From: a virus
Lineage: Duplodnaviria; Heunggongvirae; Uroviricota; Caudoviricetes
Direction: 5' to 3' (one strand)
DNA: 5,033 nucleotides
IMG/VR virus record: IMGVR_UViG_2698536647_000008
In this document: positions 1 through 5,033 of the stretch, one piece after another
How positions within the stretch are numbered: position 1 is the stretch's first letter
Layout: each line of letters begins with the position of its first letter
Position numbers and translations under genes: made by a program
The notes under the pieces: model-generated
What the model was told of the DNA's origin: nothing
Databases searched by the model: none
Seen by the model: only the letters and a program-made list of their open reading frames with translations

Positions 1-432
1 TTAATTAAAGTCAATTCCTGACAAGTCTAATCCGAGTGAGCAGTTCAAAATTTTATCCATTGCATTACTGGATAATACTACCTTTAGCTTTGCAACTTTT
101 GCAGGTGAATCCAAGGTACTATTCTTAGTTATTAGTGTATAAAAATCAGAAACTGGTATACTTTCAATTGTATGATCATACCCTTTATATGCAGCATAAT
201 TGAATACAGTGTCACCATTCATATCGTAAGCATGTGATTCAAGATCAATAAAAAATTTATCAGAACTAGTTATTGCAACTGGCTTACCATCTTTATAGAT
301 TTTAACAGTACCTGCATGGCCCGATGCATTAATATTAACAGTGTACTTTTGCTCACAGGAATATGTTACAGATTTTGCCATAGTAGAAAAAGAAAGCAGC
401 ATAACAATACAAGGTACAAGAACCTTTATCAT
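1..432 (-). CDS. Hypothetical secreted (periplasmic) protein, 143 aa, with N-terminal Sec-type signal peptide
   Basis: Complete ORF: ATG at 432..430, TAA at 3..1. N-terminus MIKVLVPCIVMLLSFSTMA-KS has a hydrophobic core and an AXA-like cleavage motif; no C-terminal TM segment. GGAG sits 7 nt upstream of the ATG (minus-strand reading TAA-ACCTATTGGAGTACTTAC-ATG). Last gene of the minus-strand operon, 18 nt after the holin-like gene. No family recognised from memory. Confidence 0.55.
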   Translation of the reverse strand: MIKVLVPCIVMLLSFSTMAKSVTYSCEQKYTVNINASGHAGTVKIYKDGKPVAITSSDKFFIDLESHAYDMNGDTVFNYAAYKGYDHTIESIPVSDFYTLITKNSTLDSPAKVAKLKVVLSSNAMDKILNCSLGLDLSGIDFN

Positions 433-450
433 GTAAGTACTCCAATAGGT

Positions 451-741
451 TTAGCTCCCACCAATCAAGATTATCAGTACTTTCCATATTTCATCAAGTG
501 GAACAATGGGGAGTACCACACCACATAAGGCCAGTACTGGCACAATGACGTAGTTCCATAGAATGATGAACGTCAGTACCCATCCTAAGCCCTGTCGCCA
601 AGTGAAGCCCTTACGCGTTTCTTCAAGTGTGATCTGGTTCTGTTCATGGCTGTTCTGTGCGTCCAGCTCTTGCTTACTTTGTTCTTTCTTCTGGAAGAAA
701 CCTACTCCAGTTTTGATTAAATCAATTATCATTCCAATCAT
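451..741 (-). CDS. Putative phage holin, 3-TM type (resembles the 'holin of 3 TMs' family, PF11351-like)
   Basis: 96 aa. Hydrophilic N-terminal ~45 aa, then hydrophobic segments. The motifs TWRQGLGWV, LPIVPLDEIW and a C-terminal ILIGG match, from memory, the conserved WRPFxGWV / LPxLxxxEL / LLGLGG pattern of that holin family. ATG at 741..739 overlaps the upstream TGA (740..738) as ATGA. Family assignment is by recall, not by alignment. Confidence 0.6.
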   Translation of the reverse strand: MIGMIIDLIKTGVGFFQKKEQSKQELDAQNSHEQNQITLEETRKGFTWRQGLGWVLTFIILWNYVIVPVLALCGVVLPIVPLDEIWKVLIILIGGS

Positions 742-1610: not shown

Positions 1611-2060
1611 TTACCTCACACCCAATAAATCAGTTAAATATTGCAGTACTTTAAATAAATCCAAACGGTTTTTTGGTAATCGTGCCTTACACATTATTGC
1701 CTTATTTAAACAGTCGGGATGTAAACCAAAGTAGCTAATCAATGCTGTTTCTAAAATCGTTGCCTCTGCGTCAGATTTAACACAGTACAAAATCTTTTTA
1801 GTGTATGGCATTCCGGCTTCAATCATTTCATTAACGCACTTACTACTACCGGTATAATCAGGCCAGTTCGATTCAACTGAAGTAGACTTTAAATTCTTTA
1901 TGTCGCGTACTTTTTTATAGATTTGCTTCTTACCGAAATAGTACTCGCCAGTCTCTGGAAACTGAATAATGTAGATAAACGAAACGTAATTCCCATCTGT
2001 TACTTCTGACATATTCCACATATTAATATCGAACATCTCCCATGCTTTATTAACTCTCAC
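1611..2060 (-). CDS. Hypothetical protein, 149 aa; possible degenerate GIY-YIG nuclease-like domain (speculative)
   Basis: First gene of the minus-strand operon. The ORF begins with GTG at 2060..2058, with AGGGA about 8 nt upstream; the first in-frame ATG (2036..2034) has no spacer to a GGGAG. Segment SFIYIIQFPETGEYYFGKK shows an IY...(about 10 aa)...YxFG spacing reminiscent of GIY-(10)-YIG, followed by Arg and Glu at roughly expected distances. The nuclease call is weak. Confidence 0.5.
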   Translation of the reverse strand: MRVNKAWEMFDINMWNMSEVTDGNYVSFIYIIQFPETGEYYFGKKQIYKKVRDIKNLKSTSVESNWPDYTGSSKCVNEMIEAGMPYTKKILYCVKSDAEATILETALISYFGLHPDCLNKAIMCKARLPKNRLDLFKVLQYLTDLLGVR

Positions 2061-2100: not shown

Positions 2101-2550
2101 ATGAGTAAACTAAAAGACAGATTAAAAGAATATGAAGGTACTATCGCTTATCAAACAAAATTGAAGTACTTTCACGATAACAAATTTTGGACATACAAAG
2201 ATTCACTAGAATTTGAAACCATCGGCTACGGTCATTTACTACATGTTGGTGAAAAGTATTCAGATGGTATTACTATTGAGCAAGCGGAAAGCCTACTAGA
2301 CCAAGATATATTAATTGCAGTGCATAACGTCGAAACACTCAATATCTGGCTACCTGACGAGTGGAAAGATTTTCTTGTGATAATGATGTTCCAGTTAGGT
2401 TTAGGCGGGGTACAGAAATTCAAAAAGATGTTAGTAGCCCTTAAAGCAAAAGATTACCCGGAAGCCATCAGACAGGCTAAAGATTCATTATGGTATAAAC
2501 AAACACCTAATCGTGTTGATGCAATGATTGCAGTACTAACCAACAAATAA
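2101..2550 (+). CDS. Phage endolysin, T4-lysozyme-like (glycoside hydrolase family 24 muramidase)
   Basis: 149 aa, ATG 2101, TAA 2548..2550. Recognisable matches to T4 lysozyme: LKEYEG (catalytic Glu region), YKDSLEFETIGYGHLL against YKDTEGYYTIGIGHLL (Asp/Thr catalytic region), MMFQLGLGGVQKF against MVFQMGETGVAGF, and WYKQTPNRVDAMI against WYNQTPNRAKRVI. No N-terminal TM or SAR segment, so it looks like a cytoplasmic, holin-dependent endolysin. Confidence 0.85.
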   Translation: MSKLKDRLKEYEGTIAYQTKLKYFHDNKFWTYKDSLEFETIGYGHLLHVGEKYSDGITIEQAESLLDQDILIAVHNVETLNIWLPDEWKDFLVIMMFQLGLGGVQKFKKMLVALKAKDYPEAIRQAKDSLWYKQTPNRVDAMIAVLTNK

Positions 2551-2588: not shown

Positions 2589-2855
2589 TTATTGTTTCTG
2601 TTCAAGAATGGTAATGATTTTTTCAATTTTCACATCCAGATCATGGATCTGGTTTTCAAGTTTAGTTAAAGCATCACGCATCTTATTCTGATCAGCTTCA
2701 ATACGCACCATACTACTTTCCTGTACTGCTTGTTTAGTTTCCAGTTCTGAAACACGTGTAAGTAGTCCATCAGTATCTTTTGTATTGTCGCGGAATACAG
2801 TGTACAGAAGTACACAGCCAGAAATAATAAGAGCTAATATTGTACCAATGTCCAT
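2589..2855 (-). CDS. Small membrane-anchored coiled-coil protein, 88 aa (i-spanin-like architecture; function unknown)
   Basis: ATG at 2855..2853, TAA at 2591..2589. One N-terminal hydrophobic segment (IGTILALIISGCVLLYTVF), then a charged, heptad-like region (ELETKQAVQESSMVRIEADQNKMRDALTKLENQIHDLDVKIEKII). No lipoprotein partner was found embedded in the one alternative frame I translated by hand. Confidence 0.5.
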   Translation of the reverse strand: MDIGTILALIISGCVLLYTVFRDNTKDTDGLLTRVSELETKQAVQESSMVRIEADQNKMRDALTKLENQIHDLDVKIEKIITILEQKQ

Positions 2856-3895: not shown

Positions 3896-4783
<888 letters not shown>

Positions 4784-4802
4784 TCAGTCAGAGGTGACTC
4801 AC

Positions 4803-5033
4803 ATGACAAAAACAGTATCAACCAGTAAAAAACCCCGTAAACAGCATTCGCCTGAATTTCGCAGTGAAGCCCTGAAGCTTGCTGAACGCATCGGTGTTAC
4901 TGCCGCAGCCCGTGAACTCAGCCTGTATGAATCACAGCTCTACAACTGGCGCAGTAAACAGCAAAATCAGCAGACGTCTTCTGAACGTGAACTGGAGATG
5001 TCTACCGAGATTGCACGTCTCAAACGCCAGCTG
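4803..5033 (+). CDS. insE: IS3 transposase OrfA (InsE), N-terminal 77 codons; truncated by the window edge
   Basis: ATG at 4803 preceded by GAGGTGA with a 5-nt spacer. Translation MTKTVSTSKKPRKQHSPEFRSEALKLAERIGVTAAARELSLYESQLYNWRSKQQNQQTSSERELEMSTEIARLKRQL matches the E. coli IS3 OrfA N-terminus as I recall it, including the helix-turn-helix region. No stop before the window ends. Confidence 0.93.
   Translation, partial: MTKTVSTSKKPRKQHSPEFRSEALKLAERIGVTAAARELSLYESQLYNWRSKQQNQQTSSERELEMSTEIARLKRQL

What the first reader, a model, noticed from the sequence alone, without database searches (positions are those of the whole stretch)
1..432. Secreted protein encoded immediately downstream of the holin-like gene
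A periplasm-targeted protein co-transcribed just after a holin gene matches the genetic logic of periplasmic holin regulators such as T4 RI antiholin. It is equally compatible with a superinfection-exclusion or envelope-modifying protein. It has two cysteines in the mature part, no lipobox and no C-terminal TM segment, so it is not an o-spanin or u-spanin.
Basis: inference. Interest (0 to 1): 0.45.

Follow-up and report, generated by a model that had tools for sequence, protein, structure and literature searches.

The report
Prophage cargo gene for periplasmic barrel protein
The gene is real and very probably makes a small exported beta-barrel protein, but it is an optional, swappable prophage cargo gene found in several unrelated prophages, not a dedicated partner of the neighbouring holin-like gene, and its function is unknown.

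Summary
Window 1-432 (minus strand) is a real 143-aa gene under purifying selection (dN/dS 0.11-0.33). It has a conserved Sec-type signal peptide, by a rule-based check, with cleavage predicted after the invariant Ala19. Two cysteines are invariant in the mature part. There is no lipobox and no C-terminal membrane segment. AlphaFold2 gives a confident up-and-down beta-barrel (pLDDT 91) with no close structural or sequence relative.

The T4 RI-like antiholin reading does not:
- Of 10 loci sampled with the identical holin-like protein, 5 carry this gene and 5 an unrelated opposite-strand cassette. The breakpoints fall at the holin-like stop and the next gene's start.
- Serratia and Pectobacterium relatives of the prophage lack it.
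- Homologues sit in the P2 gpQ-gpA hotspot, beside the integrase of SU10-like prophages, and intact in a decayed remnant.
- The cassette has 32% GC against 43-44% flanks, and its own terminator.

Best reading: a moron encoding a periplasmic binding or inhibitor protein, most likely for superinfection exclusion; that function is inferred. A tested MliC/PliC lysozyme-inhibitor link was not statistically supported.

The parts
1..432 (-). Coding sequence of the 143-aa exported protein (identical to WP_000598728.1 / P0136), stop codon at 3-1
   Evidence: Purifying selection, dN/dS 0.11-0.33. Family alignments A1-A3.
376..432 (-). Codons 1-19: predicted Sec signal peptide MIKVLVPCIVMLLSFSTMA, with cleavage predicted after the invariant Ala19
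   Evidence: Rule-based analysis of 10 members: basic n-region, hydrophobic core, small residues at -3/-1. Ala19 is invariant. SignalP was not run.
4..375 (-). Mature 124-aa domain: predicted up-and-down beta-barrel of nine modelled strands. Invariant Cys at codons 357-355 and 42-40 lie in the first and last strands
440..443 (-). Shine-Dalgarno GGAG, 7 nt upstream of the ATG
   Evidence: Read directly from the sequence.
1..454 (-). Window part of the swappable cassette. It continues about 48 nt beyond the left edge of the window, to 4 nt before the methyltransferase start. That extension holds a 14-bp-stem intrinsic terminator
   Evidence: blastn of L021 (with the gene) against L019 (alternative cassette): homology stops 4 nt before the end of the holin-like gene and resumes 4 nt before the methyltransferase ATG. 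Terminator at L001 11986-11955. GC 32.4% against 43.0% and 43.9% in the flanking genes.
451..741 (-). Upstream 96-aa membrane protein ('holin-like'). It is context, not part of the cassette
   Evidence: PF11351 GTA_holin_3TM weak hit, 16.5 bits here and up to 24.5 bits in homologues, cut-off 24.8. phrog_2024, unknown function. Hydropathy: hydrophobic 1-16, 51-82 and 86-96, polar 17-50.
470..497 (-). Weak sigma-70-like site (TTGATG-16-GATAAT, 9 of 12) inside the 3' end of the holin-like gene. A possible but unproven own promoter
   Evidence: L001 12497-12470. Fewer such sites were found in the region than in shuffled sequence, so this is not evidence of function.

Best explanation
The gene is a prophage accessory cassette (a 'moron'), not a component of the lysis machinery.

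Proposed mechanism:
- Its product is made with a Sec signal peptide, which signal peptidase I cuts after Ala19.
- The 124-aa mature protein folds in the periplasm into a closed beta-barrel. A disulfide formed in the oxidising periplasm (in E. coli normally by DsbA, from general knowledge) probably locks the barrel by joining the two invariant cysteines in its first and last strands.
- It then acts as a soluble periplasmic binding or inhibitor protein for the benefit of the lysogen.
- The most likely role is to interfere with cell-envelope penetration or DNA entry of superinfecting phages, i.e. superinfection exclusion.

Shown here: a real, conserved gene; signal-peptide features; the barrel fold; cassette behaviour; independence from the holin-like gene; residence in accessory or defence slots of several unrelated prophage types.

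Inferred: periplasmic location, the disulfide, expression in lysogens, and the exclusion function.
For: 1. Presence/absence polymorphism. Ten loci with a 100% identical holin-like protein at the same mipA site split 5:5 between this gene and an unrelated opposite-strand cassette (235/182-aa membrane protein, with a 69-aa gene called in 4 of the 5). The breakpoints lie 4 nt inside the holin-like gene's end and 4 nt before the next gene's start. E. coli 14EC007 also carries the alternative cassette.
2. Same-family prophages in Serratia and Pectobacterium end their conserved late block with the holin-like gene and have no homologue of this gene. The holin-like family has at least 147 clusters, this family 12. 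An exhaustive HMMER scan of 1.84 billion representatives gave 7 hits, one of them a repetitive 851-aa protein that I did not treat as a relative.
3. Homologues sit in other accessory slots:
   - between portal gpQ and gpA of a P2-like Buttiauxella prophage, next to PIN and GAPS4-type genes. This is the documented P2 anti-phage hotspot (PMC9122126);
   - right after the integrase of SU10-like prophages, beside an unrelated lipoprotein gene in two of them;
   - in a further, unidentified element beside another lipoprotein gene.
4. Moron hallmarks (PMC3594210): GC 32.4% against 43-44% flanks, and its own strong terminator inside the cassette. A terminator also follows the distant homologue in L016.
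5. The gene stays intact under purifying selection in decayed prophages. The window's tail-tip gene is cut by IS3. In the Enterobacter ludwigii remnant there is no lysozyme or tail gene and the holin-like gene is truncated, yet the homologue is full length. dN/dS between the remnant and intact-prophage copies is 0.19.
6. Neighbouring genes at this prophage end include DUF2188, which matches PADLOC candidate PDC-S16 (E 5e-42), and a methyltransferase.
7. Export and fold.
Against: No experiment or homology links the protein to phage exclusion, and it matches no PADLOC, PHROG, Pfam or NCBIfam model.

The only promoter-like site is weak. The 18-nt same-strand spacing with no intervening terminator means the gene could simply be read through from the late operon during lytic growth.

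In two prophage lineages the pair has co-diverged: holin-like 45% identity and this protein 52-53%. The adjacency is therefore old there, and some functional link cannot be excluded.

No terminator-like site follows the gene on its own strand in L005 or L010.

The barrel fold is equally typical of small-ligand binders.
Confidence: 0.45

Rival explanations
1. Periplasmic antiholin in the manner of T4 RI. The exported protein binds the neighbouring holin-like protein from the periplasmic side and delays hole formation.
For: Same strand, 18 nt downstream, no terminator between the genes. The protein is exported and carries a cysteine pair, as RI does (PMC8385771, PMC11413866). The adjacency is kept in two lineages that have diverged to 45-53% identity, and in a remnant.
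Against: - It is optional behind an identical holin-like protein.
- It is absent from the Serratia and Pectobacterium relatives of the prophage.
- It is present without any holin neighbour in P2-like and SU10-like prophages.
- It is retained intact where the holin-like gene is truncated and the lysis genes are gone.
- It has no sequence similarity to RI.
- It is a beta-barrel, and the 96-aa protein has no soluble periplasmic domain to be bound.
- The holin assignment of the neighbour is itself sub-threshold.
Confidence: 0.06
2. Divergent MliC/PliC-type periplasmic lysozyme inhibitor. It would block the tail or virion lysozyme of incoming phages, or restrain the prophage's own GH24 lysozyme. 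This is functionally analogous to T4 Spackle but uses the bacterial inhibitor fold.
Against: - BLASTP finds nothing.
- No PF09864 hit for any of the 12 members, even at E up to 10.
- hhalign probability is 0.2-7%. The local score is 14.6 against 10.7 +/- 1.9 for column-shuffled controls (1 of 60 reach it); the global score is 6.1 against 2.9 +/- 2.2 (5 of 60).
- The SxSGAxY motif is absent.
Confidence: 0.08
3. Calycin-like periplasmic binder of a small hydrophobic or signalling molecule (lipid, bile acid, haem, siderophore or nucleotide). It would raise host fitness by lysogenic conversion unrelated to phages.
Against: All structural matches are generic (Foldseek E of 0.012 or more, TM 0.55 or less). 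No ligand-binding motif was identified. Residence in the P2 anti-phage hotspot and beside integrases with envelope lipoproteins fits phage-related cargo better.
Confidence: 0.2
4. Periplasmic immunity protein against an envelope-acting toxin, such as a type VI secretion effector, a colicin or a bacteriocin.
Against: No cognate toxin gene is adjacent in any of the contexts examined. The structural match is no better than to dozens of other barrels.
Confidence: 0.07

Closest known systems
Phage morons, e.g. HK97 gp15 (PMC3594210)
   Same: It is inserted in some but not all otherwise near-identical prophages. Its GC content is clearly lower than that of its flanks. It has its own terminator. It is carried by unrelated phage backbones, and its product is targeted to the envelope.
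   Different: HK97 gp15 is an inner-membrane protein inside the tail operon, and there is no sequence or fold relation. An own promoter and expression from the repressed prophage have not been shown here.
T4 Spackle (gp61.3), periplasmic superinfection-exclusion protein (PMC7677548)
   Same: A small phage-encoded protein with a cleaved export signal and one disulfide, acting as a soluble periplasmic inhibitor.
   Different: Spackle is a 75-aa alpha-helical bundle from a lytic phage and is a proven inhibitor of gp5 lysozyme. This protein is a 124-aa beta-barrel from temperate phages with no known target.
T4 RI antiholin (PMC8385771, PMC11413866)
   Same: An exported periplasmic protein with conserved cysteines. 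In some prophages it is encoded next to a holin-like gene.
   Different: There is no sequence similarity. It is a beta-barrel rather than the RI fold. Its neighbour lacks a periplasmic domain. It is not tied to the holin-like gene across genomes.
MliC/PliC lysozyme inhibitors (Pfam PF09864; E. coli MliC, Salmonella PliC 3oe3, Brucella PliC 4mir)
   Different: HMM and profile-profile tests are not significant. The SxSGAxY motif is missing. The chain is about 30 residues longer, with extra strands. It is soluble rather than a lipoprotein (E. coli MliC has a lipobox).
P1 Sim and the Cor/Llp exclusion proteins (from my own knowledge, not tested here)
   Same: Prophage-encoded, exported envelope proteins that block superinfection at the entry step.
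   Different: Cor and Llp are outer-membrane lipoproteins that inactivate FhuA. Sim is larger. No similarity to any of them was detected in the PHROG or Pfam searches.

Membership tests
T4 RI-type periplasmic antiholin | Sequence or profile similarity to RI | tested here: not met
   No Pfam, PHROG or NCBIfam hit. No match in any of 50,697 phage records by tblastn.
T4 RI-type periplasmic antiholin | N-terminal export signal that places the protein in the periplasm | tested here: met
   Conserved n-, h- and c-regions with an invariant Ala at -1. This is rule-based; no SignalP and no experiment.
T4 RI-type periplasmic antiholin | Binds a folded periplasmic domain of its cognate holin (PMC11413866) | tested here: not met
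   The 96-aa neighbour has only hydrophobic segments (1-16, 51-82, 86-96) and a 34-residue polar linker flanked by basic residues, so no periplasmic domain. Binding itself could not be tested.
T4 RI-type periplasmic antiholin | Consistent co-occurrence with the holin across genomes | tested here: not met
   Present in 5 of 10 loci with the identical holin-like protein. Absent in Serratia and Pectobacterium relatives. Homologues occur without a holin neighbour.
T4 RI-type periplasmic antiholin | Delays lysis (lysis inhibition) | not testable with these tools
   Needs lysis curves with and without the gene.
Phage moron (PMC3594210) | Extra DNA present in some but not other closely related phage genomes | tested here: met
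   an exact cassette swap between 96-99% identical flanks.
Phage moron (PMC3594210) | Base composition differs from the surrounding genes | tested here: met
   GC 32.4% against 43.0% (holin-like) and 43.9% (methyltransferase).
Phage moron (PMC3594210) | Own terminator | tested here: met
   A 14-bp stem plus T-run starts 15 nt after the stop, inside the cassette (L001 11986-11955). It lies outside the window.
Phage moron (PMC3594210) | Own promoter and expression from the repressed prophage | tested here: inconclusive
   Only a 9-of-12 sigma-70-like site at window 497-470, and such sites are not enriched over shuffles. Expression could not be tested.
MliC/PliC lysozyme inhibitor (PF09864) | Match to the family HMM or profile | tested here: not met
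   No PF09864 hit in 12 members at E up to 10. hhalign probability 0.2-7% and scores within about 2 sd of shuffled controls.
MliC/PliC lysozyme inhibitor (PF09864) | Small beta-barrel with a cysteine near each end of the mature chain | tested here: inconclusive
MliC/PliC lysozyme inhibitor (PF09864) | Conserved SxSGAxY and YxxxT/SKG loops. Both are seen in the MliC alignment A4; their role in inserting into the lysozyme active site is from my own knowledge | tested here: not met
   First motif absent. Of the second, only Lys-Gly is invariant.
MliC/PliC lysozyme inhibitor (PF09864) | Inhibits lysozyme | not testable with these tools
   Needs an enzyme assay.
Spanins (o-spanin, u-spanin) | Lipobox with a conserved Cys, and a C-terminal membrane segment for u-spanins | tested here: not met
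   C8 is preceded by Pro and is not conserved. Maximum 19-residue hydropathy of the mature part is below 1.0.
Cargo of the P2 gpQ-gpA anti-phage hotspot (PMC9122126) | Located between portal gpQ and replication gene gpA of a P2-like prophage | tested here: met
   True for homologue P0004 (59% identity) in Buttiauxella, next to PIN and PDDEXK_GAPS4 genes. It is not the location of the window copy.
Known anti-phage defence proteins (PADLOC-DB 2.0) | Match to a defence-system model | tested here: not met
   No hit for the protein. The neighbouring DUF2188 gene matches candidate PDC-S16.

The most novel reading that the evidence does not exclude
The family is a new single-gene, periplasm-acting anti-phage (entry-blocking) protein with a beta-barrel fold. 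It would shuttle between the accessory or defence slots of at least three unrelated temperate-phage types in Enterobacteriaceae. It might act as a very divergent MliC/PliC-like inhibitor of phage tail lysozymes.
Probability: 0.3. Interest if true: 0.55.

Novelty: new member of a known kind. Interest (0 to 1): 0.3.

Why it matters
The practical value is a correction. Adjacency to a holin-like gene would mislead annotation into calling this protein a lysis regulator, whereas comparative genomics shows a mobile cargo gene.

If the protein does protect lysogens, it would add a soluble periplasmic beta-barrel to the short list of exclusion proteins that act before DNA entry. It would also mark the slot behind the last late gene of this prophage family as a small exchange point for envelope-targeted cargo, and it gives a compact candidate that is easy to test.

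As it stands it is one more conserved hypothetical prophage protein, with a tiny family (12 clusters, Enterobacteriaceae only).

Tried and rejected
- Database searches of the protein found nothing meaningful. These covered Pfam, PHROGs, NCBIfam, PADLOC and PDB sequences. PBP5_C at E 0.019 is below its cut-off and was seen in only 2 of 12 members.
- tblastn against 50,697 phage records gave no match for the protein or for the holin-like protein.
- The first AlphaFold2 run, with 8 sequences and the signal peptide included, was poor (pLDDT 52.7). It was replaced by the run on the mature part with 12 sequences.
- Foldseek against PDB and BFVD gave no hit below E 0.01. The afdb50 library was unavailable.
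- The MliC/PliC hypothesis was pursued with the real E. coli MliC sequence, 72 distinct enterobacterial MliC sequences and three PDB fragments. It is not significant.
- The lipoprotein neighbours of two distant homologues are unrelated to each other, so there is no conserved two-gene module.
- Promoter scans in four contexts gave nothing above chance.
- Model coordinates could not be read, so the Cys-Cys distance was not measured.

Full report
WHAT IS THERE

The window is the right-hand end of a defective prophage integrated between mipA and yeaG in Escherichia coli. Bases 1-2809 are 99.9% identical to E. coli AREA_C483. All the genes below are on the minus strand unless stated.
- Tail-tip gene, cut by an IS3 element at about 4740-4760.
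- Two small ORFs; the larger matches DUF8377.
- An 88-aa ORF with a membrane anchor and a coiled coil.
- A GH24 lysozyme, on the plus strand.
- A SegE-like GIY-YIG endonuclease.
- ORFs of 186 and 103 aa.
- A 96-aa membrane protein at 451-741.
- The finding itself at 1-432.
Beyond the left edge follow a methyltransferase, a DUF2188 gene and then host mipA.

The ORF is 143 aa, with GGAG 7 nt before its ATG, and it starts 18 nt after the stop of the 96-aa gene.

Its first 19 residues have the layout of a Sec signal peptide, with T-M-A before the predicted cut. The Ala at -1 is invariant in the family, and the basic n-region and hydrophobic core recur in every member scored.

The mature part has two cysteines, invariant in all 12 members. 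The cysteine at position 8 is inside the signal peptide, is preceded by Pro and is not conserved, so it is not a lipobox. There is no second hydrophobic segment.

The gene is real. dN/dS between orthologues is 0.11-0.33, and the identical protein is on record from 699 contigs, always as 'hypothetical protein'.

THE FAMILY AND THE FOLD

The family is tiny. There are 12 clusters at 90% identity among 5.8 billion proteins. A filter-only HMMER scan of 1.84 billion representatives gave 7 hits, one of them a repetitive 851-aa protein that I did not treat as a relative. Every member that carries an organism name is from Enterobacteriaceae (Escherichia, Enterobacter, Buttiauxella, Scandinavium, Klebsiella aerogenes).

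Nothing in Pfam, PHROGs, NCBIfam, PADLOC or the PDB sequences matches it.

AlphaFold2 on the mature part with the 12-sequence alignment gives pLDDT 91.4 and pTM 0.84, and all five models score 89.7 or more. The model is an up-and-down beta-barrel of nine strands with two short helices. The two invariant cysteines lie in the first and last strands. That fits a barrel-closing disulfide, but this is an inference because coordinates could not be measured.

Structural neighbours are generic:
- Then come Cap15 (7.2), avidins, haemophores and fatty-acid-binding proteins.
- PliC/PhiA lysozyme inhibitors score 5.2-5.9.
- Foldseek finds nothing below E 0.01 in PDB or BFVD.

IS THE NEIGHBOUR A HOLIN?

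Only weakly. PF11351 (GTA_holin_3TM) is present in all 10 diverse homologues tested and is the top hit in 9 of them. It never reaches the gathering score: the best is 24.5 bits against 24.8, and the window copy scores 16.5 bits. All sources call the protein hypothetical.

It has hydrophobic stretches at 1-16, 51-82 and 86-96 and a 34-residue polar linker. It has no soluble domain that could face the periplasm.

THE DECISIVE EVIDENCE IS COMPARATIVE

1. Ten loci carry a 100% identical 96-aa protein at the same chromosomal site. Five have the 143-aa gene. Five have an unrelated cassette on the opposite strand: a 235- or 182-aa membrane protein, with a 69-aa gene called in four of the five.
2. Aligning one locus of each kind shows 96-99% identical flanks. 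The difference begins 4 nt before the end of the holin-like gene and ends 4 nt before the methyltransferase start. E. coli 14EC007 has the alternative cassette too.
3. The cassette has 32.4% GC against 43.0% and 43.9% in the two flanking genes. It ends with a 14-bp-stem terminator that starts 15 nt after the stop codon. These are the textbook marks of a moron (PMC3594210). An own promoter is not established.
4. In Serratia and Pectobacterium prophages of the same family, the conserved late block also ends with the holin-like gene. What follows is a different reverse gene, or directly DUF2188 and host DNA. The holin-like family has at least 147 clusters across many genera, so most copies have no partner of this kind.
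5. Homologues occur in quite different elements:
   - The 59%-identical Buttiauxella protein lies between portal gpQ and replication gene gpA of a P2-like prophage, next to PIN and GAPS4-type genes. Rousset et al. showed this locus to be a hotspot of anti-phage systems (PMC9122126).
   - The 35-40%-identical proteins of Scandinavium, Klebsiella aerogenes and a metagenome lie directly after the integrase of a prophage. The two loci with enough downstream sequence (L015, L016) show podovirus-type structural genes, with SU10 portal and adaptor hits in L016. In two of the loci a lipoprotein gene lies alongside.
   - A further relative sits in an unidentified element beside another, unrelated lipoprotein gene.
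6. In Enterobacter ludwigii the homologue is full length and under purifying selection in a roughly 7-kb remnant. That remnant has lost its lysozyme and tail genes, and its holin-like gene is truncated.

Together these observations say that the protein does its job without the holin-like protein and without a working lysis cassette.

WHAT SPEAKS FOR SOME LINK

In two prophage lineages, at the mipA site and the bssR site, the pair has stayed adjacent. Over that time the holin-like protein diverged to 45% identity and this protein to 52-53%. The 18-nt spacing also allows read-through from the late operon. A residual probability is therefore kept for a lysis-related role.

MECHANISM

The best-supported reading is a prophage cargo gene whose product is exported, oxidised and acts as a soluble periplasmic binder or inhibitor.

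Given where its homologues sit (the P2 defence hotspot, integrase-proximal slots shared with envelope lipoproteins, and a prophage end that also carries the PADLOC candidate PDC-S16), protection of the lysogen against incoming phages at the envelope or DNA-entry step is the most likely function. T4 Spackle is the closest functional precedent: a small exported, disulfide-bonded periplasmic inhibitor of a tail lysozyme. It is an alpha-helical bundle, however (PMC7677548). The exclusion function here is an inference, not a result.

A LEAD THAT WAS TESTED

By eye the protein resembles MliC/PliC lysozyme inhibitors:
- YSCEQKYTVNIN against YQCDEKPLTVKLN;
- an invariant Lys-Gly;
- ILNCSL against LNNCQL.

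Using the real E. coli MliC sequence, PDB fragments and 72 distinct enterobacterial sequences, the results were:
- BLASTP found nothing.
- Pfam found nothing.
- hhalign gave a probability of 0.2-7%.
- The local hhalign score was about 2 sd above column-shuffled controls, and 1 of 60 controls reached it.
- In global mode 5 of 60 controls reached the score.

The idea is not excluded, but it is not supported. It is kept as a low-probability rival with a simple enzymatic test.

VERDICT

This is a new, very small family of a known kind of element: a prophage moron that encodes an exported protein. Interest is modest.

Noticed in passing
window 3896-5033: The tail-tip (J-like) gene is truncated to 285 aa by an IS3-family element. 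The element's end lies near 4736-4760 and its orfA starts at 4803. Intact relatives encode 1,007-1,483 aa. The prophage is therefore defective, and in AREA_C483 it carries further IS3 and IS5 insertions and a group II intron.
   Followed up: partly
L019 4274-5234 (same slot as window 1-454); also L002 11054-12014: An alternative cassette occupies exactly the same slot in half of the sampled loci. It has a 235-aa (or 182-aa) protein with N-terminal membrane segments, plus a 69-aa protein in most of these loci, both on the opposite strand, with GC 30-37%. There is no family match apart from a faint PADLOC NsnC hit (E 0.007). It may be another envelope-acting cargo.
   Followed up: partly
L001 10926-11147 (outside the window, 2 genes to the left): The DUF2188 gene that ends this prophage family in E. 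coli, Enterobacter and Pectobacterium matches the PADLOC phage-defence candidate PDC-S16 (E 5e-42). The adjacent methyltransferase weakly matches mad2 of the MADS system (E 1e-10).
   Followed up: no
window 2101-2550 (+) against L110 1715-2167 and L114 1690-2148: The GH24 lysozyme gene is on the opposite strand to the late genes in the E. coli and Enterobacter prophages, but on the same strand in the Serratia and Pectobacterium relatives. This suggests a local inversion. Its best PHROG match is to tail/baseplate lysozymes (phrog_13211, E 2e-37) rather than to endolysins.
   Followed up: no
window 2589-2855 (-): An 88-aa protein with an N-terminal membrane segment and a coiled coil lies next to the lysozyme gene in every relative (85-91 aa). 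It could be the real holin or another lysis or entry factor of this prophage family. No canonical spanin pair was seen.
   Followed up: no
window 1611-2060 (-): A SegE-like GIY-YIG homing endonuclease (PF19835, E 4e-15) sits between the lysozyme gene and the following late genes. It is conserved in position across the prophage family.
   Followed up: no
L015 8519-8944 and L018 6479-6982: Distant homologues of the protein are each flanked by a lipoprotein gene (lipoboxes LAGC and LSGC), but the two lipoproteins are unrelated to each other. The slots appear to collect envelope-targeted cargo.
   Followed up: yes
L010 8443-8808 (-): In the bssR-site prophage, the homologue is followed by a convergent 121-aa multi-pass membrane protein that is absent from the window's lineage.
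   Followed up: no
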